From an uncultured Victivallales bacterium (GTDB lineage Bacteria > Verrucomicrobiota > Kiritimatiellia > UBA8416 > CAZWPN01), in contig CAZWPN010000004.1 in NCBI GenBank assembly GCA_964635275.1, positions 502 through 64,501 of the forward strand: a stretch of DNA of 64,000 bases, given 5' to 3'. The stretch's first letter is position 1; each line of letters opens with the position of its first letter. A model generated the notes under the pieces. The model worked only from the letters and a program-made list of their open reading frames with translations. It searched no databases and was not told the DNA's origin. The translations under genes were made by a program, and so were the position numbers. Positions 1 to 54,701 of the stretch are shown piece by piece.

Positions 1-228
1 TACAGCAGCTCCGCGCTCCTATTTGTAGCCACGGCAGTCTCTGCCCTGCTCCGCGCTCTCTGTGCCTCTGTGAGAGTTCTTCCGTAACTTATTCTGAAGA
101 TCACGCCGCTTGCAGCCGTCTAAGGAATGACTACAATGCCGTCAAGACGTGCGGCATGGATGTCGCGGGGCGGATATCCGGCTCTGCCGGGCCGTCGAGC
201 GGATCGCAGGACTACAGGGGGAATGACC

Positions 229-25242: not shown

Positions 25243-26457
25243 ATGAAACGCGGATTCATTGATAAGCTGGTTGATCGGCTGGACAAGATTGACCCACGCA
25301 GCCTGCAGCCCCATTTCCTTAGGCTCATTCAGGAGAAGGGTCTTCTGGAGACTATTTTCCAGTCCATACAGGAAGGGATGCTCGTCATTGATGGATCGGG
25401 CCGAATCACTTATGCAAACCGGGCCGCCGAGCAGTTCCTGGGGTTTTCCATTGATTCAGCACGGGGGCGCCCAGTCGCAAATTATCTGAAAGACATTGAC
25501 TGGAACCGCGTTCTAAAACTTGACGTCGCGGAGTGGTCCAAGTTGATCACTCAGGAAATCGAGATCACCTACCCCACCCGGCGGAACTTGAGTTTCTACG
25601 TGGTGCCGCTGAACCCGGATGCCGCCGGGGAGAACGGCGCCGTAGTGATGCTGCGCGACATCAGCAGCCAGCGTCAGCATGAGGCATCTCTTCTCGAGTC
25701 AGAACGCATGAACGCGATCAAACTTCTGGCCGCCGGCGTGGCCCACGAAATCGGTAACCCGCTTAATGCGCTCAACATTCACCTGCAACTGCTCGATCGC
25801 GAATTGAACGCCGTACCGCCTCCTGAACAGAACAACCTTAAGGAGCTTGCTCAAATCGCGCGCAACGAGGTGGCAAGGTTGGACCTGATCATCACCCAAT
25901 TCCTCCGAGCCTTACGTCCCAGCAAGCCGGAGATGAGGCCGTCTGATGTTCACGACATCCTGCAGGAGACGCTGGCCATCCTCAAGCAGGAGATCGCGGA
26001 CCGCAACACCCAAGTCGAAATCCAGCGCGTGCGGGAAATCCCAAGGGTCAATGTAGACCGCAACCAGATGAAGCAGGTGTTCTTCAACGTCATCCGCAAC
26101 GCCATTCAGGCCATGCCGGGCGGCGGCGCACTGCGGATAGCGCTCTCAAGCACCGATCGCTTCGTGGCCATCGTGTTTCAGGACACCGGCGTTGGAATCA
26201 AATCCGAAGATCTTGGACGCGTGTTCGAACCCTATTTCACCACGAAAACCGACGGATCCGGTCTCGGCTTGATGATCGTTCAACGCATCGTGCAGGAGCA
26301 CGGCGGACATATCGAGATCGCCAGCAGACACAACTGCGGCACCGTCTTCACCATCCTCCTGCCGCTGGATGAGCCCCGGATGCGACTGCTGGAGGCACCG
26401 GGAACAAAGAGTCACAAGTCGACCAGGGGTGCACCGTGGTCAGCACCGCAAGGATAG
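25243..26457 (+). CDS. PAS-domain sensor histidine kinase (NtrB/AtoS-like)
   Basis: PAS region (GMLVIDGSGRITYANRAAEQFLGF), HisKA H-box (AHEIGNPLNAL) and HATPase motifs (DTGVGI...GSGLGL). Confidence 0.85.
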   Translation: MKRGFIDKLVDRLDKIDPRSLQPHFLRLIQEKGLLETIFQSIQEGMLVIDGSGRITYANRAAEQFLGFSIDSARGRPVANYLKDIDWNRVLKLDVAEWSKLITQEIEITYPTRRNLSFYVVPLNPDAAGENGAVVMLRDISSQRQHEASLLESERMNAIKLLAAGVAHEIGNPLNALNIHLQLLDRELNAVPPPEQNNLKELAQIARNEVARLDLIITQFLRALRPSKPEMRPSDVHDILQETLAILKQEIADRNTQVEIQRVREIPRVNVDRNQMKQVFFNVIRNAIQAMPGGGALRIALSSTDRFVAIVFQDTGVGIKSEDLGRVFEPYFTTKTDGSGLGLMIVQRIVQEHGGHIEIASRHNCGTVFTILLPLDEPRMRLLEAPGTKSHKSTRGAPWSAPQG

Positions 26458-26463
26458 GCTGTC

Positions 26464-27873
26464 ATGACTTTAACTCCGGGAAAACGCACTGTATTGATTG
26501 TGGACGACGACCGGAACACGCGCGACGGGCTTGGCCGCGCGCTTCGTTCGGGCTTTCATGTTCTGATCGCCGAAAGCGGAGAACGCGCGCTGGACATGAT
26601 GGGGTCGCAGACCGTGGACATAATGTTGAGCGATGTACGCATGCCGGGCATGGACGGCATCACACTGCTCCAGAGAGCCCTGGCGCGGAGCCCTCGGCTC
26701 ATTTGCATACTCCTGACCGCCTATGGGAACGTCGAAGTGGCCGTGGAGGCCATGAAGAGGGGCGCATATGACTTCCTGATGAAACCTGTCAACCTGGATC
26801 ATCTGGACCTCCTGCTGAAGAGGGCATTGCACTCCCGCGATATGGAGACTGAGAACACGGAGTTGCGGCAGCAGTTGGACGACCGGTTCGGCATGGAACG
26901 GATCATTGGCGAGGCGCCTGCCATGCAACAGCTCTTTGACATTATCCGCCAGGCCTCGCCGACACAGGCCACAGTGCTGATCCAGGGAGAGAGCGGTACG
27001 GGGAAGGAACTCGTCGCCCATGCCATCCACCGGCTGAGTACCCGCACCAAGGGGCCATTCATCCCGGTGCACTGTGCCGCCTTGTCATCTACGCTTCTGG
27101 AAAGTGAGCTTTTTGGCCACGAAAAAGGCGCCTATACCGGCGCGGCCAACCAACGGCACGGCCGGTTCGAAATGGCAGATGGCGGCACACTGTTTCTCGA
27201 CGAAATCTCGGAGATTGACCCCTCGGTTCAGGTCAAACTCCTGCGCGTTTTGGAAGAGCGTCGGTTTGAACGCGTCGGTGGGTCGGCCAGCATCGAGGTT
27301 GATATCCGCCTGATTGCCGCCACCAACCGGGATCTGAAGGCCCTCGTGACCGCTGGAAAATTCCGTGAGGACCTTTTCTTCCGTCTAGACGTCGTGAACA
27401 TCCGGCTGCCGCCTCTGAGGGAACGTCTCGCCGATGTACCGATGCTCTTCCGCCATTTCCTCACCGAATTCAACCAGAAGAACGCCCGCAACATTGAAGG
27501 TATCACGCCGGACGCCCTGCATATCCTCTGCGCGCATTCCTGGCCAGGCAACGTGCGAGAGCTGCGCAATACCATCGAGAAGATGGTCGTGCTCTCGCGC
27601 GGCCCTAAGCTAACCGCTCGTGATATTCCGCCCAGCGTTCGCGATGCAGCTCAACGGGTGACCGCCGCCAGCGACGTCGCGCCAGCCGACACCGGATCAA
27701 TCGCCGAAGCCGAGACCCGCATGATCAAGGCCGCCCTGGAGAGAAACAACAGCAACCGCACCCGGGCCGCCTTGGAGTTGGGAATCAGTCGGCGCACGCT
27801 CCACCGCAAACTGCGGGAACTGGGTGCCAACGAAACATCCGATATCGCGGCCGCAACAGACATAGCTCCATGA
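26464..27873 (+). CDS. Sigma-54-dependent response regulator (NtrC family)
   Basis: REC domain, AAA+ Walker A GESGTGKE, an enhancer-binding-protein motif (GAYTGA variant of GAFTGA) and a C-terminal HTH. Confidence 0.85.
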
Positions 27874-29653: not shown

Positions 29654-30934
29654 TCAGGCACTCCAAAGAGCCGCCGCCATCGCGCGGATATGTGCCGGCG
29701 TCGTGCCGCAGCACCCGCCCAGGATGTCGGCTCCTGCCGCTCTGACCTGCAGGGCGTACTCCGCCATAATGGCCGGTGTCTGGGGAAACACGTCGCGGCC
29801 ATCCACGTGGACAGGAGCGCCTGCATTCGCATGGACAATGACTGGGACTCCAGGCACTGCCGCGCGAATGTCCCTGACAATATCGACCATACGATCCATT
29901 CCGTTTCCGCAATTGGTGCCGACAATGTGGGCTCCAGCCTCCACCATGGCCAACGCCATCTCTCCGGGGGCAACACCCATCATCGTCCGGTACTGGCCGT
30001 GCACCGTCCGCTCGAAGGTGAATGTGCACAGAACCTCGAGTCCCGTGTTTTCGCGTGCCGCCTTCACGGCCAACGCACCCTCGTCCAACGCGGCGAACGT
30101 TTCGATCAAGCAGGCGTCAGCACCGCCGGCCTCGAGCGCCTTTGCCTGATCCCGGAAAGAGGCATAAAGCTCATCCTCGGAGACATCACCCATCAGCAAC
30201 ATCTTCCCCGTAGGCCCCATGGATGCAATGACATGACGGTCCGGCCCGGCCGCCTCTCTCGACAACCGGGCGGCCGCATGGTTGAGCTCCGCCACGCGGT
30301 CCTGAAGCCCGAAGTGAAGCAGCTTGAAACACGATGCCCCGAAACTGTTCGTTTTGACCATCTCAGCGCCGGCATCGACATACTGCCGAGCAACGTCCCG
30401 AACCGCATCGGAATGCTCAACGCACCAGAGTTCTGGACACTCGCCGGGCTTCAATCCCTTTTGCTGAAGGATCGTGCCCCAGCCTCCGTCCGAAATCATT
30501 ACCTTCCCGTCCTTCAACTTGTCCACAATACGCTTCATCCCTGCCTCCATGGGAATCGCCCTGGAGGCGCTTGCCGCCAGAGCCCGCCTTATCTCCGCCA
30601 AGAGAACATCTGACGACTGCGTCTTGGACACGACCGCAACGCCAGGATAGCGCAGATGAATATCGTGCAAATCCGCCCGCGCCGTGAAAACGACAACGGG
30701 GATAGGCCGGGCCACGCGAGTCGCCATGACGCTCAGGAACGTGAACCCATTCATCCCGGGCATGTTGACGTCCAGCAGCACCAGATCCACATGGTGCCGG
30801 GACACATGCCGCAGGCCATCGTCTGCATTGTGGACCGCTACAACCTCATAGCCATCGAATCGCAAACGATCACCCACCGCCATCGCTATGCGGGCGTCGT
30901 CGTCAATAAACAGAACTACCGGCTTGAGACGCAT
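29654..30934 (-). CDS. Response-regulator receiver domain fused to homocysteine S-methyltransferase (Pfam S-methyl_trans, MetH N-terminal-like) domain
   Basis: REC: VLFIDDD...LVLLDVNMPGMNGF...VVFTARAD. Methyltransferase: ISDGGWGTILQQKGL...AGAEMVKTNSFGAS...GTNCG...GGCCGTTPAHI, i.e. the zinc-binding Cys triad as in MetH. Likely start MRLKPV at 30934, after a GGGTGGA RBS. Confidence 0.75.
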   Translation of the reverse strand: MRLKPVVLFIDDDARIAMAVGDRLRFDGYEVVAVHNADDGLRHVSRHHVDLVLLDVNMPGMNGFTFLSVMATRVARPIPVVVFTARADLHDIHLRYPGVAVVSKTQSSDVLLAEIRRALAASASRAIPMEAGMKRIVDKLKDGKVMISDGGWGTILQQKGLKPGECPELWCVEHSDAVRDVARQYVDAGAEMVKTNSFGASCFKLLHFGLQDRVAELNHAAARLSREAAGPDRHVIASMGPTGKMLLMGDVSEDELYASFRDQAKALEAGGADACLIETFAALDEGALAVKAARENTGLEVLCTFTFERTVHGQYRTMMGVAPGEMALAMVEAGAHIVGTNCGNGMDRMVDIVRDIRAAVPGVPVIVHANAGAPVHVDGRDVFPQTPAIMAEYALQVRAAGADILGGCCGTTPAHIRAMAAALWSA

Positions 30935-31049
30935 AACATCCACCCTACCCGCAGGCATGGTACAGCGAGTCTCCGCGCTCCGCCACAAGAAAAAAGACCC
31001 TGGCAACCCGCAGGTCGCCAGGGTCTCATATTCGATCCGTCGTACGGTC

Positions 31050-31685
31050 CTATTTCTTCAGCAGGGATTTGGCCAAGTCCGCAGCCGACGCCGCATCAGG
31101 AGCGTACCCGTCTGCCCCGATCTCATTGCAGAAAGCCTGAGTCACCGGAGCACCGCCTATTATGACCTTTGTCTTGCCAGCGAGGTCCGATCCCTTGACA
31201 GCCTCCACAACGGCTTTCATGTTTGTCATGGTGGTTGTCAACAGGGCCGAGATACCGATAATGCTCACGCCATGGTCGCGAGCCGCCTGAACGAACTTCT
31301 GGGGATCCACGTCGATGCCAAGGTCCATGACCTTGAAGCCAGCCCCTTCCAGCATCATGCCGACCAGGTTCTTGCCAATGTCGTGAAGGTCACCCTTCAC
31401 CGTCCCGATCGCCGCCACTCCAATCGGCTGCACACCGGCCAAGGTGAGTTTGGGCTGCAAAATGCTCATGCCCGCCTTCATGGCGCGTGCGGCGATGAGA
31501 ACTTCTGGAACATAGACCTCGTTCTTCTTGAACCGTTCGCCAATCACGCTCATGCCGGACAACAAACCCTCGTTCAGAATCTTTGACGGCGCAATCCCCT
31601 CGCTCAATGCCTTTTCCACCAACGCCTTCACGTCGTTGGCCTTCCCCTTCATCAAACTTTCGGACATGCTCACAAGAACGCTCAT
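31050..31685 (-). CDS. Corrinoid (cobalamin)-binding protein, MtbC/MetH B12-domain type
   Basis: B12-binding cap plus Rossmann fold with the DxHxxG motif (GDLHDIGKNLV), followed by S-x-L and GG motifs. A GAAGGAG RBS lies 6 nt before the ATG at 31685. It sits immediately upstream of the REC-methyltransferase on the same strand. Confidence 0.8.
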   Translation of the reverse strand: MSVLVSMSESLMKGKANDVKALVEKALSEGIAPSKILNEGLLSGMSVIGERFKKNEVYVPEVLIAARAMKAGMSILQPKLTLAGVQPIGVAAIGTVKGDLHDIGKNLVGMMLEGAGFKVMDLGIDVDPQKFVQAARDHGVSIIGISALLTTTMTNMKAVVEAVKGSDLAGKTKVIIGGAPVTQAFCNEIGADGYAPDAASAADLAKSLLKK

Positions 31686-31828
31686 TCGATCTCCTTCACT
31701 TGACTCCAAACGTGCTCGGCAGCACCCATCGCGCTGCGACACCACACGCCGGACAGGTGCGTACCATACGCTATACCCCACTAGCACACTAGCAAATTGC
31801 ACAAGACAACTATAACGATTATGCTGGT

Positions 31829-33088
31829 TTGCAGATAAATAATGTGGCAACTATACGCAGGTACGGCGATTTCAAGGTCCTCGCTATGGCGATTCTGTCA
31901 CGAAGGTTGATGGGCGATGTGGCGCGCGAGTACCAATCCATTTTCGGATTGAAGCCCGCATTCCTTAGTCTGTCCGGCGGCGTGCTGCATGGGTCCGAAC
32001 CCATCGGAGCCGGCCCTGCCGGGCGGCGCAAGCGGCACACTGCCCTCCAGGAAAGCATCAGCACCGGCGAGCCTTGCGTGTTCCATCCGCTGCCAGGAGT
32101 GACTTCGTGGATACTGGCGCTGGAGGATCACCGCCTGATCCACGGTGCGGCTGTGGCTGGCGAGATCCTCACGGACCAGGGCAAAGGGCAGCGAAGTGGA
32201 GCAGTCGACTATCTCGTCTCACACGGTTGGGATGGCGATGCGGCAAAGACCGTCGGCAACAGACTGGCCGTCTGGCCTGAGGTTCGTGTGCGTGAAGCCG
32301 CCGTCGGCCTTGGTGATGTCTTCTACCGCATCAGCGGATGGAAACCGCTTCTGATGACCGAGAACCGCCTGAAAATACGGCAGCAGAAGCAGATCAGCCA
32401 GTCGATTGACGACTTGCGTCGCAGCGGCCGCCCCGCGCTTTATGCCTTCGAGAAAGAACGCATGTTGCTCACGCATATCCGGGCAGGCGACCGTCCTGCC
32501 GCCCGCCAGATACTCAATGAAATGCTGGCCACCATATTCCTCTCTTCGCCGCAACAGGTCGTGTTACGTGCACGGGCCATCGAGCTGGTCAGTTACCTGA
32601 CTCGTGCCGCGATCGAAGACAACGCATTGCTGGAACCGCTCATCGAGCGCAACCACGCATGGACGGAAAGGCTGGTGAGGGCGCGCAGTTTCGAGGAACT
32701 CTCAAGGATTATTTCGAGCGCCATGGACGACTTTATGGATGCGATCGACCTTCATGGAATGAACCGTACCAATACCAAGGTGCGTGCGGCGCTTGACTAT
32801 ATTGGCGAACACTATGGCAAGAAACTGTCCCTGCGCTACCTTGCCGCACATGTCGGTCTCAGTCCATCCCGACTGTCACACCTCGTCCGCAACGTCACCG
32901 GCAAGTCGCTGACGGAGGTTACCCAGCAGGTCCGTATCCGCCACGCGCAACACCTCCTGGAGCGGACAGACCAAAGTTGCACTGAGATAGCCTACGAGGT
33001 GGGCTACAACGACCAGAGCTACTTCATTAAGCACTTTCGCCGTCTGACAGGAACCACACCGCTGAAATACCGCCAACACCGCCCTTAG
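31829..33088 (+). CDS. AraC family transcriptional regulator (start possibly 31886)
   Basis: C-terminal AraC-type double HTH (SLRYLAAHVGLSPSRLSHLVR...YFIKHFRRLTGTTP). It is divergent from the corrinoid operon. Confidence 0.8.
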   Translation: MQINNVATIRRYGDFKVLAMAILSRRLMGDVAREYQSIFGLKPAFLSLSGGVLHGSEPIGAGPAGRRKRHTALQESISTGEPCVFHPLPGVTSWILALEDHRLIHGAAVAGEILTDQGKGQRSGAVDYLVSHGWDGDAAKTVGNRLAVWPEVRVREAAVGLGDVFYRISGWKPLLMTENRLKIRQQKQISQSIDDLRRSGRPALYAFEKERMLLTHIRAGDRPAARQILNEMLATIFLSSPQQVVLRARAIELVSYLTRAAIEDNALLEPLIERNHAWTERLVRARSFEELSRIISSAMDDFMDAIDLHGMNRTNTKVRAALDYIGEHYGKKLSLRYLAAHVGLSPSRLSHLVRNVTGKSLTEVTQQVRIRHAQHLLERTDQSCTEIAYEVGYNDQSYFIKHFRRLTGTTPLKYRQHRP

Positions 33089-45724: not shown

Positions 45725-46414
45725 TCAATCCCTTTCGCTGCCGATGAGACGATACACGGCCGCGCCGATCAGAGCGCCAACAACCGGAGCGACCCAGAAG
45801 AGCCACAACTGGCCAATCGCCCAATCGCCGACAAACAAGGCAACGCCTGTGCTGCGAGCCGGGTTGACAGATGTGTTGGTTACCGGGATGCTGATCAGGT
45901 GAATCAGGGTCAGGCCCAGACCTATGGCGAGTGGTGCGAAGCCCTGCGGAGCTCGCTTGTCGGTGGCGCCGAGAATTATGAGCAAGAACATCATTGTCAT
46001 GACAACTTCGCACACCAAGGCAGCCAGCAAGGAATACCCGCCGGGTGAGTGCGCGCCGTAGCCGTTGGAGGCGAAACCCGCCGACACTTCAAAGCCGGTC
46101 GTACCGCTGGCAATAAGATAGAGGACGCCGCCGGCTGCCACTGCGCCCAATACCTGTGCGACAATATAAGGCACGAGATCCTTCGCCGGGAAGCGACCTC
46201 CAGCCCATAGTCCGACCGAAACCGCCGGATTGAGGTGACATCCAGATATGTGTCCTATCGCGTAGGCCATTGTCAGCACGGTCAGGCCGAAGGCCAACGC
46301 AACACCGAGCAACCCGATGCCAACGTTTGGAAAAGCGGCGGCCAAAACCGCACTGCCGCATCCGCCGAGAACCAGCCAAAACGTCCCAATGAACTCTGCA
46401 CCGTACTTCTTCAC
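45725..46414 (-). CDS. aqpZ: Aquaporin Z (MIP family water channel)
   Basis: Two NPA boxes ([10 protein letters not shown] and NPARS) and six TM helices. Confidence 0.9.
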
Positions 46415-46647
46415 GTTATCCTCCTTGTATCAATTGCTGACAACCAGACTTCATCTTCACACCACAATTTCATCGAACCGCCTCGCCCCGTTGCAACCTA
46501 AATCTCCAACTGACCACAGTTGGCCGGATTCGACCGACCTCAGTACTGCGATATGCTTACAACAAATGACATGCGCGAAGTGTGGAGAGACGCGATTTTG
46601 TTGTTGAGAACACATTGTTCTCAGGCTTCTTGTGATGCCATATGAAT

Positions 46648-46722
46648 GGTGGGCCCAGCTGGGGTCGAACCAGCGACCAGAAGATTATGAGTCTCCTGCT
46701 CTGACCAACTGAGCTATGGGCC
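46648..46722 (-). tRNA. tRNA with anticodon CAT, most similar to tRNA-Ile2 (lysidine) / elongator Met; CCA encoded
   Basis: Cloverleaf: acceptor GGGCCCA/TGGGCCC, anticodon loop CTCATAA. The body is very close to E. coli ileX (GGCCCxxAGCTCAGTGGTtAGAGCAGGxGACTCATAATC...GGTCGCTGGTTCaAgTCCAGC), and it is not initiator-type. Confidence 0.8.
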
Positions 46723-46780
46723 CGTTACTCAGGCGGGGATTATCAAGCCACCGCCCAACGCTTTCAAGACTAAAGACGCA

Positions 46781-48268: not shown

Positions 48269-50905
48269 CTAGGCCCTCTTTCCGATAACGACGTCCTTGA
48301 GCAGATTGACAAGGGCATGGTATTCGAACGGCTTCTGCACAAACCCCGCCAGTTTCGTACCGCCGAACCTGCGGCACGCCTCGCTCTCGTTGTAGCCGCT
48401 GCAGAGAACCACCTTAACATCGGGCCGGATGCAAAGCAGTTGCTCGAATGTCTGCTCTCCATTCAGTCGGGGCATCGTAAGGTCCAGCAAAACCGCGACC
48501 ACCGAGTCTGCATGCTCCCTGAACTTATCCACAGCATCCTGACCGTCCACTGCAGTGACAACGCGGAACCCTATCTTCTCCAGAATCATACGTGAGATGC
48601 TCCGCATGGACTCCTCATCGTCCGCAACCAGAATAGTCCCTGATGCTTGCCAGAAATGAGCCCCCGTGATGATCGACTGCGGCAGATGCTCAATTTCCTT
48701 TTCCGACAAAGGCAGCAGGACCTTGAACGTCGACCCCCTGCCCGGTTCGCTGTAGACATGGATTGCGCCCCGGTGTCCGCGGACAATTCCGAGCACCGCC
48801 GCCAAACCCAGACCGCGCCCGCTCGCCTTGGTAGTAAAGAAGGGGTCAAAGATACGCCCCCTGGTCTCCGCGTCCATTCCGCAACCTGTATCCGACACCT
48901 CAAGAAAAGCGTATGCACCCTCCTGAAGCCCCTCGTTGATGTAAGTCTGAGACAGATAGTTCCTGTCGGCATCGACAATTCCGGTGCGTATGGTGATGGT
49001 TCCCGGCGTATCGCCAATCGCGTCCGATGCATTGGTAATCAGATTCATCAGAATCTGGCGGAACTGCGCCACGTCCACCTCAACGCTGGGCAGTGTTTCG
49101 GCCAGATCATACCGCACAATGGCCTTCTTGCTTATCGAGACCTGGAGAAGGTTGGCCATCTCTCTGACAATCAGATTGAGGTCCACCACCTTGATTACGA
49201 ACTTACCCTTACCTGAATAGGCCAGCAACTGCGACGTCAAATCCGACGCACGGACTGCGGCTCTCTTGATCTCCTCAACAAACGAATACCCGGGAGCTGA
49301 CTGTTCCATGTCCTGCAACGCTAGATCGGCATTGCCCATCACCGCCACAAGCAGATTGTTGAAGTCGTGGGCAATCCCACCGGCAAGGATCCCCAGGCTC
49401 TCCAGCTTTTGCCCCTGAACCATCTGCTGATGCAACTGCCTCTTGTCAGCCTCAACCTGCCGGCGCACCGTAAGATCACGGAACACCATCTGCAGCAGAA
49501 CTTCGCTGCCCATCGTGACCATGGACAGATTCATCTCAGTCTCGACGATAGACCCGTCGAGACGCCGGCACCGCCACTCTGCCACCGACGCCCCCTCGCT
49601 CCGCACCTTATCCATCAGGGCATCCCACAGGGCACGCGACTCCTCGCCCTCAGCTTGCATGGGCGGCAAAAGAGAGGCAAACGGGTGACCGACGATCTGT
49701 TCGCGACTCCCGCCAAACAGGGCCATCGCCCGTGTATTGCAATCCATCACCTGCTGGTCCTTCAGGACTACGAGGGCATCGCCGGCGTTCTCAAACAACG
49801 CGCGGTACCGCCGTTCGTTGTCCCGCAATGACTCCTCCGCCTTCTGCAAATCCCCCAGCATTCGATTGACATCCTCGCTCAGAAGGCTGATTTCGTCTTT
49901 CCCTACCACCGGCAAGCGAATCGCCATGTCCCCTGTCTTCCCGATCCGGCTCATCGTCTCGGCTATCCGGCTGATGCGTGAAACCACCATGGTCTCCAGA
50001 ACACCGAGCACAAGTAGCAACAGGGCAACACCGGTAATACCAACAGATAACATCGCCAAACGGACCGCGCGAAGGCCCTGCTTCATGACTTCGCGCGGCA
50101 GGCTGGCCCGCAGAAGGAGCGCCGCCTGCCCATCCACATCCGACAGGGTCGTATACGCCTTAACCCACTCGGGCGAGCTTCTGTCAAGGTGGTTTGGCGT
50201 CTCCGGCGATATCATGGAAAGCGCCTTCCCGATCCCGCCTGGTAGACCGCTCTCTCTCAGCGGCCAGATATCGAGCGGAATCTGCAATTCCCGCACAAAC
50301 CCCGACAAAACCTGCGCCGTGATCCGCCGGCCCACAATGACGCTCCCAGTAATACGCTCAACGCCGCCCTCTGAAGTAGCAATTGGATGCGAGGCCACTG
50401 CCATCGTTTCGCCTGAAACCACCACCAAACCAGCAGTGCGGTCCCGCGGACCGGCAAAAGTAGTGAACCGTGGCAGAAGCGAGTTCACGACGTCCGGGTT
50501 GAGCTGCGCGACATCCGCACTGTCGGCCCCGCATTGTCCCTGCCAGACAACCTCGCCTCCCTCGCCAACGTAGAGGATCATGTCGACGCGGTTGTCGTAG
50601 AAAACCGAGGGGGGAAAACAGGCGCCGATCTGAGCCCGCTCACGATTGGCCAACAGCAGACGAACATCCCGAAGCGTCGAACAATGGAATGCCACCGCAC
50701 CGACCCGGTCAACCTCGCGACGGAACGCCTCCTGACAGCGGGCGATGTCCCGCTTGGCGCTCTCCTGCTCCAGACGGACGAAGTTCGGAACGACTACCAG
50801 CCGGTTTAACCCGTACTCGAGCACCCCGTAGAAGACGAAGACTGCTAAGACGACAAGGGCTATACGCAATCTGAGCATATGGAGACGTTTCTTCTTGTCA
50901 AACAA
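48269..50905 (-). CDS. Hybrid sensor histidine kinase (TM + extracytoplasmic sensor, PAS, HisKA, HATPase, C-terminal REC)
   Basis: H-box AHDFNNLL, ATP-lid DTGCGMD...GRGLGL, and a C-terminal REC (ILVADDEE...LDLTMPRLNG). Confidence 0.85.
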   Translation of the reverse strand: MFDKKKRLHMLRLRIALVVLAVFVFYGVLEYGLNRLVVVPNFVRLEQESAKRDIARCQEAFRREVDRVGAVAFHCSTLRDVRLLLANRERAQIGACFPPSVFYDNRVDMILYVGEGGEVVWQGQCGADSADVAQLNPDVVNSLLPRFTTFAGPRDRTAGLVVVSGETMAVASHPIATSEGGVERITGSVIVGRRITAQVLSGFVRELQIPLDIWPLRESGLPGGIGKALSMISPETPNHLDRSSPEWVKAYTTLSDVDGQAALLLRASLPREVMKQGLRAVRLAMLSVGITGVALLLLVLGVLETMVVSRISRIAETMSRIGKTGDMAIRLPVVGKDEISLLSEDVNRMLGDLQKAEESLRDNERRYRALFENAGDALVVLKDQQVMDCNTRAMALFGGSREQIVGHPFASLLPPMQAEGEESRALWDALMDKVRSEGASVAEWRCRRLDGSIVETEMNLSMVTMGSEVLLQMVFRDLTVRRQVEADKRQLHQQMVQGQKLESLGILAGGIAHDFNNLLVAVMGNADLALQDMEQSAPGYSFVEEIKRAAVRASDLTSQLLAYSGKGKFVIKVVDLNLIVREMANLLQVSISKKAIVRYDLAETLPSVEVDVAQFRQILMNLITNASDAIGDTPGTITIRTGIVDADRNYLSQTYINEGLQEGAYAFLEVSDTGCGMDAETRGRIFDPFFTTKASGRGLGLAAVLGIVRGHRGAIHVYSEPGRGSTFKVLLPLSEKEIEHLPQSIITGAHFWQASGTILVADDEESMRSISRMILEKIGFRVVTAVDGQDAVDKFREHADSVVAVLLDLTMPRLNGEQTFEQLLCIRPDVKVVLCSGYNESEACRRFGGTKLAGFVQKPFEYHALVNLLKDVVIGKRA

Positions 50906-51553
50906 TCACCCGACACGCCCCGCCAGCCAGAAAAGTCAGCGTCAATACAGCTGCACACACCTGCCGCCTGGCTCCCGAAAGCCTAACGCCGTGCATGATA
51001 GTTTCCAGCCGGCCTAAGCGCAAGCATTACGCAACGATGCGCACGATTGCAGCTATGGCGGTTTCTCGTCGGATCAGCCATAGACAGGCACCCCTTCCTC
51101 CCGAATCATATGGGCGAACCGGCTTGAGGTGGAAGGTCGATCACATCAACAGGCGACGACAGTCAGGGCAACAATTCCCCGTAGAAGGTGAAGAAGTGTT
51201 GAGTTCGGATTCCGTCAATCGCAATCTCAACATCCCTATAGCCAACGTCATTCCGGGCGGCAAAACCGAAAACATACACCCTATTGACGCCCTATTTGGA
51301 CGCCAGTTCTCGTATCGCCTGCCTGTCTTCCATGTTCACCATGCCCCCATTATACGCTACGTCCCAATATGGCAAAAGCATTTGTGAACATATAGAACGA
51401 CGGTGTGGATTTCGACACTAATCAATATTACTCAAACTCAAAATACTCGACAGCTTTGCTCCGCACGCTACTTTAACAAACTCGACACTTAATCTTAAGC
51501 ACTGTCATCATTTATCCGCAAACGTGTTTCTGTCCAATCAGTCGCACGCTACA

Positions 51554-51778
51554 TCACTTGACTTCCGCTTTTTTCTCCACCGCCTTGTTACTGCAACTGC
51601 ACGCAGGCCCCTTGCACAAATTACACTTCGCGGAGTCATCCGTTTTCTCAACTTCACACTTCCGAGTGCTGCATCCTTCTTTCAAAGGGCATTTCCGCCC
51701 AGCACAACATCCAGAAATCATTACGGATGCCCCTATAACCAACGCCACAATAATAACAACCTTTCCGATCGTCCTCAT
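51554..51778 (-). CDS. Small Cys-rich lipoprotein (9 Cys in ~45 aa mature region; metallothionein-like?) in a low-GC islet
   Basis: Lipoprotein signal (MRTIGKVVIIVALVIGASVMISGC) with a lipobox ISG|C. An AAAGG RBS sits 9 nt upstream. The mature part is CCAGRKCPLKEGCSTRKCEVEKTDDSAKCNLCKGPACSCSNK. Gene GC is ~47% versus ~62% for neighbours. Confidence 0.55.
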   Translation of the reverse strand: MRTIGKVVIIVALVIGASVMISGCCAGRKCPLKEGCSTRKCEVEKTDDSAKCNLCKGPACSCSNKAVEKKAEVK

Positions 51779-52042
51779 ATTCATACCTTTCTTTTCTGAC
51801 AATTAACTTACTTAGATTTTATAAGCATGGAGAGTGCCAGCACACGTCACAAAAGAGTCATATGCAATGTAACACTCATGCCATGAATCAGATACGACAT
51901 GTATGGTTGGCGTCTCAAGAAGGTCAATGGCAGCAGGCGACTGTATCTTTCAGAGAGAGCGAGACAGAGTGAGGCGTGCGGGAAACAACAATTGAACCTC
52001 GGCAGGCTAGCCCAGCACCACGGGAATAATGGAAACCCGACG

Positions 52043-52543
52043 TCATCGCTCGATTTGCGCTGCAGCCGAGTTATATATATCCCCGCCGCCCTGAAGGTAG
52101 GATTCAAGGACCGCAACGGACTCGCTCCGCAGAACGTCACGGACGACATCAACGCCTCGCCGCCGCAGGCCTTCGACCCACCGCCGCGGTTTCTGTCCCT
52201 CATCGAAACCGATTGCGCGGGCGTCCGTGTCACGGGCGCCACACACCACGCGCCGCACACCCGACCATGGAATCGCACCCAGGCACATAGCGCAAGGCTC
52301 GGCGCTTGTCACCAGTTCAAAGTGCCGCCCTGGATCCGCTGCCAGATCGTGCGACCCAATCCGCTGCTGAGCCGTGGCCAGCGCAACCATCTCCGCATGA
52401 GCCATCGAACTGCGCCAGGAAACCACGAGGTTCACACCCACCGACACGAGTTCTGGACGGTGCCCGGCATAGACAGCGGCAGCGAAAGGGCCGCCGGTCC
52501 CCCTGGCTATGTTCTGCCCCGCCAACCGCAGCACAAAGCGCAT
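52043..52543 (-). CDS. CDA-family zinc deaminase, guanine-deaminase (GuaD)-like
   Basis: GGPFAAAV, HAEMVAL and PCAMCLGAIPWSGVRR align with B. subtilis GuaD (GGPFGAVI, HAEVTAI, PCPMCLGAIYWARPK), as does DTDA..GFD. Start chosen at MRFVLRLAG. Confidence 0.7.
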   Translation of the reverse strand: MRFVLRLAGQNIARGTGGPFAAAVYAGHRPELVSVGVNLVVSWRSSMAHAEMVALATAQQRIGSHDLAADPGRHFELVTSAEPCAMCLGAIPWSGVRRVVCGARDTDARAIGFDEGQKPRRWVEGLRRRGVDVVRDVLRSESVAVLESYLQGGGDIYNSAAAQIER

Positions 52544-52659
52544 GCGGTCCTCAATCGTTCCCCCCTCGCCACCGTGCCGCCGAACAAAGCCCAACACCCA
52601 TCCAGGAAGCTGCCATCGGATCTCGGATGGACACCGCAAGGTGGAATCCCCATGGAGCT

Positions 52660-53331
52660 TCATTGCCGCGCTCCGGCAGCGTCCATCAGCAGGCGGTAAT
52701 TGTCCGGGATGGGCAGTTCATCGTCCGGTGCCGGAAGCAGGTCGTCCGCCGTGTCCGGCTTTCTGTCCGGGCCGGCGGACTTCACGACAGGCCGTCCATC
52801 CTCCAAACGGTAGATGTAAGGATGCCGCCACGGATCGGGTCTGATCAGCGACACGTAGGGGCCGGACCAGTTGCTTACCCCGGGATTCAACACAAGCGCT
52901 TTGAAGCCGAAATTCGTGGCCGGGTACCCTGCACAGTCGATCCGGTAGAGTTCCAGCCCTGTTCGAAGAGCCGTCACCTCGCTTGACGCCTTCAGCACGC
53001 GATGGCTGAGCGTGGCCGAGAACTTGGTCCCTTTAGACCTCACCGCCAAGGCGCCGCCCACGATGGCTAGTGCCGCAGCCAGCGCAAGCACCTGCGCCGG
53101 CCTCCGGGTGAGAACTCCCGCCGTATTGGGAATAGCTCTGCGCTGACGATCCGCGTCCTTCACAATCCGAAGGCGGGTCATCTTCCGCTTGAGGAACGGC
53201 GTCCGCTGATAGGCCTCGGGTACCTTCATCCGCCGCCCGCAGAACGGACACGGCCCTGAGAGCGGCTTCTCTCCAAGGTCACCCTTGCAGTAGGCGCAGC
53301 GAAATCGAGGCATGCCTACCTCTCCTGCCAC
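52660..53331 (-). CDS. Zinc-ribbon + single TM + type II secretion GspG-like pseudopilin domain fusion protein
   Basis: N-terminal CxxC...CxxC (RCAYCKG...CPFCGRRM) and a TM (LALAAALAIVGGALAV). The C-terminal domain matches the GspG fold (ALRTGLELYRIDCAGYP...FKALV.NP..SNWSGPY...DPW..PYIY......SAGPD.KPDTADD). It lacks the prepilin GFTLxE leader. Confidence 0.65.
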   Translation of the reverse strand: MAGEVGMPRFRCAYCKGDLGEKPLSGPCPFCGRRMKVPEAYQRTPFLKRKMTRLRIVKDADRQRRAIPNTAGVLTRRPAQVLALAAALAIVGGALAVRSKGTKFSATLSHRVLKASSEVTALRTGLELYRIDCAGYPATNFGFKALVLNPGVSNWSGPYVSLIRPDPWRHPYIYRLEDGRPVVKSAGPDRKPDTADDLLPAPDDELPIPDNYRLLMDAAGARQ

Positions 53332-53835: not shown

Positions 53836-54420
53836 TCAAGCCAGTTTCCGGATAACGGTCCGCACCACTCCGCCTATTTCCATGGAGCGCTGTGGCCGTA
53901 TCGGCCGGTAGTTGCGATTGGCTGGCTCAAGCCGCACCCCGCCATCGTCCCTGACAAAGTACTTCATCGTCCATTCGCCATCCACCTGGGCAACAACAAT
54001 ATCGTTGGTCTTTGGATCCACGCCACGTTCCACAAGCACAAGGTCGCCCGGATAGATCCCTGCCTCACTCATTGAGTCGCCGGTCACTTTCAGCATGAAC
54101 GTCGCCTCGGGCTTCTCGATCAGGAATTCGTCGAGGCTGAGCGTGTCCAGCAACTCCTCCTCGGCAGGTGAAGGAAATCCGGCCGCCACGGATCCCAGCA
54201 TGCGAAGAGCTCCGGTCAGCTTCTCCGTCGCCGCGACCTTGTGCCCTTTCCTCGCCACATAGCCATGCTGTTCCAGCTTCTTGAGCAGGCCATGCACCGC
54301 GTTCTTCGAACTGTATCCGAATAACGCCAGCATCTCATTGTAGCCGGGAAAGCGCCGCTCACGGGCATGAAAGGCCCGCAGCGTCGCCACTTTCTCCCTG
54401 ATATTGATTTCTCTTGGCAT
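53836..54420 (-). CDS. lexA: LexA repressor
   Basis: N-terminal winged HTH and a C-terminal S24 peptidase domain (VTGDSM...K). Confidence 0.9.
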   Translation of the reverse strand: MPREINIREKVATLRAFHARERRFPGYNEMLALFGYSSKNAVHGLLKKLEQHGYVARKGHKVAATEKLTGALRMLGSVAAGFPSPAEEELLDTLSLDEFLIEKPEATFMLKVTGDSMSEAGIYPGDLVLVERGVDPKTNDIVVAQVDGEWTMKYFVRDDGGVRLEPANRNYRPIRPQRSMEIGGVVRTVIRKLA

Positions 54421-54452
54421 TGCAGATCCAGCTTTAGTCCGGATTTATAACT

Positions 54453-54464
54453 GAACCGAAGTTC
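54453..54464. promoter_or_regulatory. Putative SOS box GAACCGAAGTTC (GAAC-N4-GTTC palindrome), 33 bp upstream of the lexA start codon
   Basis: Perfect inverted repeat of the CGAAC/GTTCG-type LexA operator core. It is adjacent to the palindromic TTATAA, a possible -10. Confidence 0.5.
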
Positions 54465-54485
54465 TTTATCAATCAGAATTCCCGT

Positions 54486-54520
54486 GCTTGACGAAGATCG
54501 AGGTCTTTAGCATAATTTTA
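54486..54520 (+). promoter_or_regulatory. Sigma-70-type promoter TTGACG-17-CATAAT for the ilv leader
   Basis: Near-consensus hexamers with 17-nt spacing lie a few nt upstream of the leader ATG. Confidence 0.6.
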
Positions 54521-54525
54521 GACAC

Positions 54526-54630
54526 ATGAGTTCAACAGGTTCCAACGCGACGCTGTCAACGATCATCCTACCGGTCGTTGTAGGGGTGGTCGTTCTCCGC
54601 CTTACCGGGGCGGTGAGCGTCGCGGCGTGA
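54526..54630 (+). CDS. ilv operon leader peptide (34 aa: MSSTGSNATLSTIILPVVVGVVVLRLTGAVSVAA)
   Basis: Short ORF with a 14-codon run dominated by Ile/Leu/Val. It lies between the promoter and a rho-independent terminator, directly upstream of ilvB. Confidence 0.7.
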   Translation: MSSTGSNATLSTIILPVVVGVVVLRLTGAVSVAA

Positions 54631-54675
54631 GGAGCCCGTAATCGCAATCTTCACGAAGCGAGAGACGCCCACCGC
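54610..54675 (+). promoter_or_regulatory. Antiterminator pairing: GCGGTGAGCGTC (54610-21, end of leader ORF) with GACGCCCACCGC (54664-75, 5' arm of the terminator)
   Basis: 11 of 12 complementary. The pairing is mutually exclusive with the terminator stem. Confidence 0.55.
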
Positions 54676-54701
54676 AAACGATGCGGTGGGTTTTTGTTTT
54701 T
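54664..54701 (+). terminator. Attenuator (rho-independent terminator): CCCACCGCA-aacga-TGCGGTGGG followed by TTTTTGTTTTT
   Basis: Perfect 9-bp GC-rich stem with a U-tract, 28 nt upstream of the ilvB ATG. Confidence 0.7.

What the first reader, a model, noticed from the sequence alone, without database searches (positions are those of the whole stretch)
50906..52042. Low-GC (~45-47%) islet encoding a Cys-rich lipoprotein upstream of a hybrid histidine kinase
In a ~62% GC genome, about 1.1 kb drops sharply in GC. It contains one convincing gene: a 74-aa lipoprotein precursor whose mature 50 aa hold 9 cysteines in CxC/CC/CxxxC spacing, suggestive of a metal-binding or disulfide-knotted peptide. 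Its A/T-rich codon usage (AAA, GAA) is foreign to the host. The downstream gene on the same strand is a large hybrid sensor kinase. Short AAACTCGACA repeats occur in the spacer.
Basis: seen in the sequence. Interest (0 to 1): 0.55.

Follow-up and report, generated by a model that had tools for sequence, protein, structure and literature searches.

The report
Foreign islet with OmcA-like cysteine-rich lipoprotein
A roughly 1-kb low-GC stretch is a lineage-specific insertion between two conserved housekeeping-side genes; it carries a dead antitoxin gene and one intact orphan gene for a tiny cysteine-rich lipoprotein whose cysteine pattern matches the chlamydial envelope protein OmcA, which is modestly interesting but rests on a single sequence.

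Summary
Window 51150-52000 is the lowest-GC stretch of all 64 kb (43-47% against 59.7%). On the minus strand it contains a 74-codon ORF (51778..51554) with a textbook lipoprotein signal peptide and 9 Cys in a 51-residue mature peptide.

Relatives keep the order lexA-hisI-pseudopilin-deaminase-[slot]-CHASE4 hybrid kinase. Their slot holds either a 173-nt spacer or a CheY-like gene. Here it holds 1162 nt of unrelated DNA, so the islet is an insertion and is not tied to the kinase.

The small ORF has no detectable homologue in any search. It is nevertheless intact beside a dead gene, has a Shine-Dalgarno site, codon periodicity and a sigma-54-like promoter motif.

Eight of its nine cysteines coincide, ungapped from the lipidated Cys, with those of Chlamydia psittaci and C. 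abortus OmcA (p about 1e-4). An OmcA profile scores it above 1999 of 2000 shuffles. It fails Pfam's OmcA model, lacks the invariant non-Cys residues and has no omcB neighbour.

Verdict: a probable real, horizontally acquired, OmcA-like disulfide-rich lipopeptide. Function and expression are untested. Interest is moderate.

The parts
50881..52042 (.). The islet: 1162 nt filling the slot between the deaminase stop and the likely true start of the hybrid kinase (ATG 50880, MLRLRI...). The same slot is a 173-nt spacer in relative L009 and a CheY-like gene in L010-L013.
   Evidence: Synteny and blastn break-points. No similarity to the L009 spacer and no REC remnant. GC and CAI.
51824..51839 (-). 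Candidate sigma-54 promoter, TGGCACTCTCCATGCT (GG-N10-GC). Its 3' end is 45 nt upstream of the ATG at 51778.
   Evidence: It is the only match with <=1 mismatch in 64 kb, but 2.4 such matches are expected by chance per window. The motif is not enriched at 2 mismatches. An NtrC-type activator is present in the window and rpoN in relative L010. Position and strand fit, but function is inferred only.
51786..51791 (-). Shine-Dalgarno-like GAAAGG, 7 nt before the ATG at 51778.
   Evidence: Read directly from the sequence.
51554..51778 (-). Small ORF of 74 aa encoding a Cys-rich lipoprotein precursor. Signal peptide 51778..51710, lipobox I-S-G-C with the Cys codon at 51709..51707, mature 51-aa peptide 51709..51557, stop 51556..51554. 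Alternative upstream starts are ATG 51784 and TTG 51802.
   Evidence: ORF and sequence. Lipobox and Cys statistics. Purine at codon position 1 is 0.73 against 0.55-0.57 in the other frames. No homologue found. OmcA-like framework.
51412..51487 (.). Three TCGACA copies spaced exactly 35 nt apart, in the spacer between the small ORF and the pseudogene. They could be operator remnants or chance.
   Evidence: Count is not significant. The RNA fold of this spacer is no better than shuffles (z = 0.7), and no terminator was found.
51074..51342 (-). Pseudogene of an MntA/Pol-beta-type nucleotidyltransferase (type VII toxin-antitoxin antitoxin). In-frame stops at TAG 51294..51292 and TGA 51165..51163, plus a frameshift near 51110-51125. 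The GS...DxD motif has degenerated to GF...DVE. A TATAAT box lies at 51354..51349. No HepT partner was found.
   Evidence: Translations. Pfam PF18765 E = 1.3e-5, 25.7 bits, model positions 3-88 of 93. NCBIfam MntA E = 1.5e-3. PADLOC PDC-S09 E = 1.8e-5, and 4.9e-5 for the unspliced single-frame translation.
48269..50880 (-). Flanking host gene: CHASE4-HAMP-PAS-HisKA-HATPase-REC hybrid histidine kinase. The listed ORF runs to TTG 50905. Alignment to the L009 orthologue favours ATG 50880 as the start.
52043..52663 (-). Flanking host gene: TadA-like nucleoside/cytidine deaminase, the last gene of the conserved lexA-hisI-T2SSG-deaminase block.

Best explanation
The low-GC islet is the remnant of a horizontally acquired DNA segment. 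It was inserted, in this lineage only, between a TadA-like deaminase gene and a CHASE4 hybrid histidine kinase gene.

The islet contains two things. One is a dead MntA-type antitoxin gene whose toxin partner is gone. The other is an intact, independently expressed orphan gene for a 74-aa prolipoprotein.

Inferred mechanism for the gene product:
1. The precursor is exported by Sec.
2. It is diacylglycerol-modified on Cys24 by Lgt, cleaved by signal peptidase II and N-acylated.
3. This leaves a basic 51-residue lipopeptide anchored on the periplasmic side of a membrane. With Cys rather than Asp at +2, the E. coli rule predicts the outer membrane.
4. Its eight remaining cysteines follow the same framework as the chlamydial 9-kDa outer-membrane lipoprotein OmcA (C-C-x4-C-x5-C-x4-C-x10-C-x2-C-x6-C). 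They are expected to form intra- or intermolecular disulfides, so the peptide would act as a small disulfide-cross-linked envelope component.

The gene is not functionally tied to the kinase downstream.

Shown: the composition, the insertion, the pseudogene, the ORF features and the framework match. Inferred: expression, lipidation, localisation, disulfides and function.
For: Insertion:
- The gene order lexA-hisI-T2SSG-deaminase-[slot]-kinase is conserved in five related contigs.
- The slot is 173 nt in L009 (kinase 67% identical) and a CheY-like gene in L010-L013 (48-49% identical). It is 1162 nt here.
- The islet shows no similarity to either slot content.
- It has the lowest GC in the window and a CAI in the lowest 0.5% of host chunks.

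Pseudogene: three independent profile libraries hit the same frame, which carries two stops and a frameshift.

The small gene is probably real:
- It has a Shine-Dalgarno site at -7.
- It has a canonical n-h-lipobox signal peptide, seen in 0.5% of random ORFs. Its Cys content is seen in 0.08% of random ORFs.
- It shows purine-at-position-1 periodicity.
- The ORF is intact although the neighbouring 91-codon gene has three disruptions. P(intact) is about 0.09 if both decayed at the same rate.
- The only sigma-54-like site with <=1 mismatch in 64 kb sits 45 nt upstream on the right strand. The window also encodes a sigma-54 activator.

OmcA-likeness:
- BLASTP to verified C. trachomatis OmcA gives 33% identity over 60 aa with pairwise E = 1e-4.
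- Mature-to-mature Smith-Waterman gives z = 4.1, while seven other Cys-rich decoys give z from -1.2 to 1.8.
- hhalign against 11 verified OmcA sequences gives probability 65% and E = 6e-5.
- An HMM built from those 11 sequences scores the ORF 18.6 bits, reached by 1 of 2000 shuffles that keep the signal peptide.
- Eight of nine Cys coincide without gaps with C. psittaci/C. abortus OmcA when anchored at the lipidated Cys. Random placement reaches this in 1e-4 of trials.
- OmcA is a proven lipoprotein, about 15% Cys, that is disulfide-cross-linked in the chlamydial outer membrane complex (PMC1403754, PMC2811131).
Against: - No homologue of the small ORF was found anywhere: 5.8 billion clustered proteins, 1.84 billion representatives by full phmmer, GTDB genomes, metagenomes, viral contigs, plasmids and phages. 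Conservation and purifying selection therefore cannot be shown.
- ORF length is not significant.
- Pfam Chlam_OMP3 (PF03503) does not hit even at E <= 10.
- The invariant OmcA residues RIVD, Cys8, FEDP, AP and Cys21 are absent.
- No omcB-like gene is nearby.
- Cys-rich proteins are notorious for spurious similarity (PMC1403754), and OmcA was chosen from memory, so the p-values are partly post hoc.
- The sigma-54 motif is not enriched, and no upstream activator site or terminator was found.
- No integrase, tRNA target or flanking repeats mark a mobile element.
- The AlphaFold single-sequence model is uninformative, with pLDDT 51.
- The host taxon could not be established.
Confidence: 0.55

Rival explanations
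1. The small ORF is a spurious open frame in decaying, non-functional inserted DNA. The islet is simply a dead toxin-antitoxin remnant, and AT-biased mutation explains the low GC.
For: No homologue was found in any database. About one ORF of this length per kb is expected by chance at this composition. The neighbouring gene is demonstrably dead. Three frames are open over the same 250 nt. The structure prediction has low confidence.
Against: The joint occurrence of a canonical signal peptide plus lipobox (0.5% of random ORFs) and a Cys fraction of >=12% (0.08%), with all Cys after the cleavage site, is very unlikely for noise. The ORF also has a Shine-Dalgarno site at the right distance and codon-position periodicity. 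Its cysteine framework matches OmcA at p about 1e-4. It is intact next to a gene with three disruptions in 91 codons.
Confidence: 0.25
2. The ORF is real but encodes a periplasmic, lipid-anchored metal-binding (metallothionein-like or copper/zinc-buffering) peptide rather than a disulfide-cross-linked structural one.
For: CC, CxxC and CxC motifs and 17.6% Cys in the mature part resemble metal-thiolate cluster proteins. If the host is an anaerobe without an oxidising periplasm, the thiols would stay reduced (inference).
Against: No Pfam, NCBIfam or PDB similarity to any metallothionein or metallochaperone was found. Alignment to recalled SmtA gave z = -1.2 and to MT2A z = 1.8, against 4.1 for OmcA. 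There are no His residues and no metal-resistance genes or metal-responsive regulator in the neighbourhood. Known bacterial metallothioneins are cytoplasmic (established knowledge).
Confidence: 0.12
3. The ORF encodes a secreted cationic Cys-rich antimicrobial or bacteriocin-like peptide, or another addiction or defence accessory brought in with the toxin-antitoxin cassette.
For: The mature peptide is basic (12 K/R against 7 D/E) with 8 free Cys, like eukaryotic defensins and myticins. The only Pfam match below E = 1 is Myticin-prepro, at E = 0.27. It sits next to a defence-type MntA remnant that matches PADLOC PDC-S09.
Against: The Myticin hit is far below threshold, at 11.9 bits against a cutoff of 28.5. 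The lipobox predicts a membrane-anchored product, not a released one. No immunity, transporter or maturase gene is nearby. Alignment z-scores to a recalled defensin and a recalled approximate myticin-like peptide were about 0. PADLOC and PHROGs give nothing for the ORF.
Confidence: 0.05

Closest known systems
[quoted passage not shown]
   Same: Both are short precursors (74 aa here, 87-90 aa for OmcA) with an SPII signal peptide and a lipobox followed directly by a second Cys (…S-[GS]-C-C…). Both have a Cys-rich, Lys-rich mature peptide. The cysteine framework 1, 2, 7, 13, 18 is shared with 10 of the 11 OmcA sequences aligned, and positions 1, 2, 7, 13, 18, 29, 32 and 39 are shared ungapped with C. 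psittaci and C. abortus. Profile and pairwise scores are well above shuffles.
   Different: It fails the Pfam model. It lacks the invariant RIVDCCFEDPCAP block, Cys8 and Cys21. It lacks the C-terminal third of OmcA (…GPQ.KG…DGRCKQ). No omcB partner gene is adjacent. The host is a roughly 60% GC bacterium with full amino-acid biosynthesis and sigma-54, not a chlamydia. The gene sits in a foreign islet rather than in a core late operon.
MntA-HepT (MNT-HEPN) type VII toxin-antitoxin modules / PADLOC candidate defence system PDC-S09
   Same: The minus-strand frame 51342..51074 matches Pol-beta/MntA nucleotidyltransferase profiles over nearly their full length. Such cassettes are typical cargo of mobile islands (established knowledge).
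   Different: The gene is inactivated by two stops and one frameshift, and GS is mutated to GF. No HEPN toxin could be recognised in the remaining 190 nt. There are no close relatives in plasmids.
Bacterial metallothioneins (SmtA/BmtA family)
   Same: They are small, with about 9 Cys and CxC/CxxC motifs.
   Different: There is no sequence or profile similarity. Metallothioneins are cytoplasmic, lack a signal peptide and use His ligands, and this peptide has none.
Classical genomic islands
   Same: The islet has deviant GC and codon usage, is absent from syntenic relatives and carries toxin-antitoxin cargo.
   Different: It is only about 1.1 kb and has no integrase, no tRNA target and no direct or inverted terminal repeats. 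It looks like a heavily eroded remnant.

Membership tests
Bacterial lipoprotein precursors (SPII / PROSITE PS51257-type) | N-terminal basic n-region, uncharged hydrophobic h-region, and a lipobox [LVI][ASTVI][GAS]C with the Cys at position 15-35 | tested here: met
   MRTIGK / VVIIVALVIGASVMI / I-S-G-C24. The regex form of the rule matches. Only 0.5% of random ORFs of islet composition match.
Bacterial lipoprotein precursors (SPII / PROSITE PS51257-type) | Actual diacylglyceryl modification and signal peptidase II cleavage | not testable with these tools
   This needs palmitate labelling, globomycin sensitivity or mass spectrometry.
OmcA / Chlam_OMP3 (PF03503) | Score at or above the Pfam gathering threshold (25 bits) | tested here: not met
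   No PF03503 hit even at E <= 10. Genuine OmcA scores 128.9 bits.
OmcA / Chlam_OMP3 (PF03503) | SPII lipoprotein with Cys-Cys at +1/+2 and about 15% Cys | tested here: met
   …ISG-CC…. Cys makes up 12% of the precursor and 17.6% of the mature peptide. OmcA properties are taken from PMC1403754.
OmcA / Chlam_OMP3 (PF03503) | Conserved cysteine framework of the mature peptide | tested here: inconclusive
   Eight of nine Cys coincide ungapped with C. psittaci/C. abortus OmcA (p about 1e-4). Positions 1, 2, 7, 13 and 18 are shared with 10 of the 11 aligned OmcA. OmcA's invariant Cys8 and Cys21 are missing here. The home-built HMM gives 18.6 bits, reached by 1 of 2000 shuffles. hhalign gives probability 65%.
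OmcA / Chlam_OMP3 (PF03503) | Invariant non-Cys block R-I-V-D-C-C-F-E-D-P-C-A-P | tested here: not met
   The corresponding residues here are A-G-R-K-C-P-L-K-E-G-C-S-T.
OmcA / Chlam_OMP3 (PF03503) | Co-transcription with the large Cys-rich protein gene omcB | tested here: not met
   The Pfam scans of the large ORFs of the window found no Chlam_OMP6/OmcB-like protein. The next gene is a pseudogene, followed by a histidine kinase.
MntA-type nucleotidyltransferase antitoxin (type VII TA) | Profile match to the Pol-beta/MntA NTase fold | tested here: met
   PF18765 E = 1.3e-5, at 25.7 bits just under the GA of 26.9, as expected for a pseudogene. NCBIfam NF047752 E = 1.5e-3. PADLOC PDC-S09 E = 1.8e-5.
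MntA-type nucleotidyltransferase antitoxin (type VII TA) | Intact reading frame with the catalytic G-S…D-x-D/E motif and an adjacent HepT (HEPN) toxin | tested here: not met
   There are two in-frame stops and a frameshift. The motif reads G-F…D-V-E. No HEPN-like sequence was found downstream. It is therefore called a pseudogene.
Sigma-54-dependent promoter | A -24 GG / -12 GC element (TGGCAC-N5-TTGCW) at a suitable distance upstream of the gene, with an activator available | tested here: inconclusive
   TGGCACTCTCCATGCT is a 1-mismatch match whose 3' end is 45 nt before the ATG. It is the only such site in the window, but 2.4 are expected by chance. An NtrC-type activator exists at 26464..27873. 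No upstream inverted repeat was found.
Bacterial metallothionein (BmtA/SmtA) | Profile or sequence similarity, and a Cys/His zinc-cluster motif | tested here: not met
   No Pfam hit. z = -1.2 against recalled SmtA. The peptide contains no His.
Horizontally acquired island | Deviant composition, and absence from the same site in relatives | tested here: met
Horizontally acquired island | Mobility hallmarks (integrase, tRNA target, terminal repeats) | tested here: not met
   None were found. The nearest tRNA is at 46650-46723, beyond the kinase.

The most novel reading that the evidence does not exclude
The small ORF is a true, expressed, distant relative of chlamydial OmcA. That would make it the first OmcA-type cysteine-rich envelope lipoprotein outside the Chlamydiae. 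It would exist as a stand-alone gene without omcB, in a free-living roughly 60% GC bacterium, acquired by horizontal transfer. The 43-48% GC of the islet would fit a chlamydia-like donor.

This would mean the building block of the disulfide-cross-linked chlamydial outer membrane complex is older or more mobile than thought. It could then be studied in a non-obligate-intracellular host.
Probability: 0.35. Interest if true: 0.62.

Novelty: new variant of a known kind. Interest (0 to 1): 0.42.

Why it matters
OmcA has been regarded as Chlamydiaceae-specific. Even the annotated 'OmcA' of Protochlamydia is not detectable by BLAST (PMC1403754).

A lipoprotein with the same lipobox-CC start and the same cysteine spacing in an unrelated, biosynthetically complete bacterium would bear on the origin of the chlamydial disulfide-cross-linked envelope. 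It would also offer an easier system for studying how such lipopeptides fold and cross-link.

More modestly, the locus shows how a tiny orphan gene can persist intact inside an otherwise decayed toxin-antitoxin insertion. It also shows that a suggestive neighbour, here a hybrid kinase, can be coincidental.

If the ORF is not expressed, the finding is an ordinary eroded insertion.

Tried and rejected
Homologue searches with the small ORF all returned nothing:
- word-indexed search of 5.8 billion proteins
- full phmmer against 1.84 billion representatives
- Pfam, NCBIfam, PHROGs and PADLOC
- PDB sequences
- GTDB genomes, metagenomes and viral contigs
- plasmids and phages by tblastn, and the whole islet by blastn against plasmids

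Exact-sequence look-ups of window proteins failed. A 99.9% identical strain contig (L016) ends 29 nt inside the islet, so it gives no comparative data.

Other checks that led nowhere:
- A remnant of the CheY-like gene seen in relatives: none.
- Similarity of the islet to the L009 spacer or to the rest of the window: none.
- Paralogous small Cys-rich lipoproteins in the window and 16 fetched loci: none.
- Rfam at gathering and at E <= 5: only two tRNAs elsewhere and snoRNA noise.
- Terminator scan and RNA fold of the spacer: nothing.
- Inverted or direct repeats upstream of the promoter: none.
- TCGACA/AAACTCGACA repeats: not above chance by count.
- HepT remnant after the pseudogene: not detectable.
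- MntA pseudogene against plasmids and PDB: no useful hit.
- AlphaFold2 on the single sequence: pLDDT 51, with only the signal-peptide helix predicted, so no fold search was run.

Attempts to name the host organism failed, through cluster names, sample accessions in papers and NCBIfam on unknown neighbours.

Rejected ideas:
- An operon or functional link between the lipoprotein and the kinase, rejected on synteny.
- A metallothionein, rejected because there is no similarity.
- The plus-strand ORFs 51524..51799, 51558..51806 and 50995..51387 as genes. They have no protein-like features, and the last is antisense to the pseudogene.
Full report
**1. The observation**

The window averages 59.7% GC. 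The 13 lowest-GC 300-nt windows of all 64 kb start between 51151 and 51751, at 43-48% GC. The drop is therefore real and is the most extreme in the window.

MRTIGKVVIIVALVIGASVMISG|CCAGRKCPLKEGCSTRKCEVEKTDDSAKCNLCKGPACSCSNKAVEKKAEVK.

- A GAAAGG Shine-Dalgarno-like site lies 7 nt before this ATG.
- The mature peptide is 51 aa, with Cys at positions 1, 2, 7, 13, 18, 29, 32, 37 and 39.
- Codon usage is foreign to the host. CAI is 0.537 against 0.68 +/- 0.03 for 35 host genes, in the lowest 0.5% of 75-codon host chunks. GC3 is 0.53 against 0.73.
- The gene downstream on the same strand is a CHASE4-HAMP-PAS-HisKA-HATPase-REC hybrid kinase.
- The TCGACA repeats exist at 51412, 51447 and 51482, exactly 35 nt apart. 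By count they are not beyond chance.

**2. What the islet is**

The flanks are core genes. On one side lie lexA, hisI, a GspG-like protein, a TadA-like deaminase, and then ilvBN, leuA and aroE. On the other side lie the kinase, an aquaporin, leuCD and parA.

Orthologues of the kinase were found at 67% identity (P0001) and at 48-49% identity (P0003, P0004). Their contigs all show the same order, lexA-hisI-T2SSG-deaminase-[slot]-kinase. The slot differs:

| Locus | Kinase identity | Slot content |
|---|---|---|
| L009 | 67% | 173-nt spacer, 58% GC |
| L010-L013 | 48-49% | CheY-like receiver gene |
| This window | - | 1162 nt (50881..52042) |

The 1162 nt here have no similarity to either slot content and hold no receiver-gene remnant. 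The islet is therefore a lineage-specific insertion. The kinase is an old resident that exists elsewhere without the lipoprotein.

A near-identical strain (L016, 99.9%) is present in a Logan assembly. Its contig stops 29 nt into the islet.

**3.

The minus-strand frame from 51342 reads:
MVNMEDRQAIRELASK*GVNRVYVFGFAARNDVGYRDVEIAIDGIRTQHFFTFYGELLP*LSSPVDVIDLPPQAGS…
It then shifts frame to …IREEGVPVYG*.

- This matches Pfam Polbeta nucleotidyltransferase at E = 1.3e-5, covering model positions 3-88 of 93.
- It matches NCBIfam MntA antitoxin at E = 1.5e-3.
- It matches PADLOC PDC-S09 at E = 1.8e-5, and at 4.9e-5 without my frame join.
- It is a pseudogene, with two in-frame stops, one frameshift and a degenerate catalytic motif.
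- Its HEPN toxin partner is not recognisable.

Toxin-antitoxin cassettes are typical mobile cargo, which fits a foreign origin. No integrase, tRNA target or terminal repeats remain.

**4. Is the small ORF a gene?**

Against:
- No homologue was found in any resource.
- An ORF of this length is expected about once per kb at this composition.

For:
- A canonical signal peptide plus lipobox occurs in 0.5% of random ORFs.
- A Cys fraction of >=12% occurs in 0.08% of random ORFs and in none of the 443 window ORFs. All the Cys fall after the cleavage site.
- Purine content at codon position 1 is 0.73, against 0.55-0.57 in the other frames.
- The Shine-Dalgarno site is correctly spaced.
- The ORF is intact while the adjacent 91-codon gene has suffered three disruptions. 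P is about 0.09 under equal neutral decay.
- TGGCACTCTCCATGCT at 51839..51824 is the only sigma-54-type site with <=1 mismatch in the window, and its 3' end sits 45 nt upstream on the correct strand. However, 2.4 such sites per window are expected by chance.
- The window encodes an NtrC-type activator, and a relative encodes rpoN.

I put the probability that this is a real gene at about 0.7.

**5. What it resembles**

The start of the mature peptide, lipobox-Cys-Cys, recalled the chlamydial 9-kDa lipoprotein OmcA. I verified my recalled OmcA sequences by exact look-up and aligned eleven of them.

- BLASTP to C. trachomatis OmcA gives 33% identity over 60 aa, pairwise E = 1e-4.
- Mature-against-mature Smith-Waterman scores 64, against 36 +/- 6.9 for shuffles (z = 4.1). 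Seven other Cys-rich peptides used as decoys give z from -1.2 to 1.8.
- hhalign against the OmcA alignment gives probability 65% and E = 6e-5.
- An HMM built from the eleven sequences scores the ORF 18.6 bits. One of 2000 shuffles that keep the signal peptide and lipobox Cys reaches this.

The most telling result comes from anchoring at the lipidated Cys without any gap:

| Protein | Cys positions in the mature peptide |
|---|---|
| C. psittaci / C. abortus OmcA | 1, 2, 7, 8, 13, 18, 21, 29, 32, 39, 43… |
| This ORF | 1, 2, 7, 13, 18, 29, 32, 37, 39 |

Eight of nine positions coincide. Random placement reaches this against any of the eleven sequences in 1e-4 of trials.

Counter-evidence:
- Pfam's PF03503 does not hit.
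- The invariant RIVDCCFEDPCAP block and two invariant Cys are missing.
- There is no omcB neighbour.
- The host is clearly not a chlamydia. It has about 60% GC, amino-acid biosynthesis genes, sigma-54 regulators and several two-component systems.
[quoted passage not shown] I therefore do not file the ORF as a family member. I regard OmcA as the closest known analogue and a possible distant relative.

**6. Mechanism (inferred)**

1. The precursor is exported by Sec.
2. Lgt, LspA and Lnt process it at Cys24.
3. Residue +2 is Cys rather than Asp, so under the E. coli Lol rule the peptide would be sorted to the outer membrane.
4. Eight free Cys allow four disulfides or cross-links to other envelope proteins, as OmcA does in the chlamydial outer membrane complex (PMC2811131).
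5. The peptide is basic, with 12 K/R against 7 D/E.

Rival readings are a spurious ORF (0.25), a lipid-anchored metal-thiolate peptide (0.12) and an antimicrobial or defence accessory peptide (0.05). Nothing links the gene to the kinase.

**7. Novelty and verdict**

- The islet itself is an ordinary eroded insertion.
- The orphan lipoprotein is a new variant of a known kind, the small Cys-rich envelope lipoprotein.
- Its OmcA-like cysteine framework outside the Chlamydiae is the only surprising aspect. It rests on one sequence and on partly post hoc statistics.
- Interest is moderate (0.42).
- The decisive tests are transcript and peptide detection, read mapping in related strains, a framework-pattern search across small ORFs, and lipidation and disulfide mapping.

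Noticed in passing
window 29654-31006 (-) and 31050-31850 (-): A response-regulator receiver domain is fused to a homocysteine S-methyltransferase domain, next to a separate B12-binding protein. This is an unusual signalling-enzyme fusion resembling a split, regulated MetH.
   Followed up: no
window 52660-53331 (-); also L009 455-1108, L010 5529-6182, L016 1103-1756: A GspG/T2SSG-domain protein has an N-terminus with two CxxC pairs (zinc-ribbon-like) and a transmembrane segment instead of a prepilin leader. It is strictly syntenic between hisI and the deaminase in all relatives.
   Followed up: partly
L010 6860-7276; L011 8324-8770; L012 5835-6338; L013 3305-3808: Relatives with a 48-49% identical kinase carry a single-domain CheY-like receiver gene immediately upstream of the kinase. 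It is absent from both the window and L009, so the kinase's probable partner was lost before or when the islet arrived.
   Followed up: partly
window 25243-26457 (+) and 26464-27873 (+): A PAS histidine kinase sits next to an NtrC-type REC-Sigma54_activat-HTH_8 regulator. This shows that the organism uses sigma-54.
   Followed up: no
window 51868-51883 (-): A second, weaker sigma-54-like site (TGGCATGAGTGTTACA, 2 mismatches) lies 44 nt upstream of the better one. It is probably chance.
   Followed up: no
L016 (Logan SRR12261224), aligned to window 54415-52014: A contig from a 99.9% identical strain ends 29 nt inside the islet. This could reflect low coverage, or strain heterogeneity at the islet that breaks the assembly.
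   Followed up: partly
window 51543-51552 and 51462-51471 (with a partial copy near 51357-51363): The exact 10-mer GTAGCGTGCG (minus strand) occurs just after the small ORF's stop and again 81 nt downstream. A third, partial copy GTAGCGT abuts the TATAAT box in front of the MntA pseudogene. About 0.2 such exact pairs are expected by chance in this length (my own back-of-envelope estimate).
   Followed up: no
window 127-6339 (+): A 2070-aa bacterial alpha-2-macroglobulin (MG2, A2M and bMG10 domains) sits at the start of the window.
   Followed up: no
window 46300-46750 and 54250-54700: These are the two other GC dips in the window (49-52%). The first coincides with a tRNA gene (46650-46723) and its intergenic region. 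The second coincides with the divergent lexA / acetolactate-synthase intergenic region. Both look like ordinary promoter regions.
   Followed up: no
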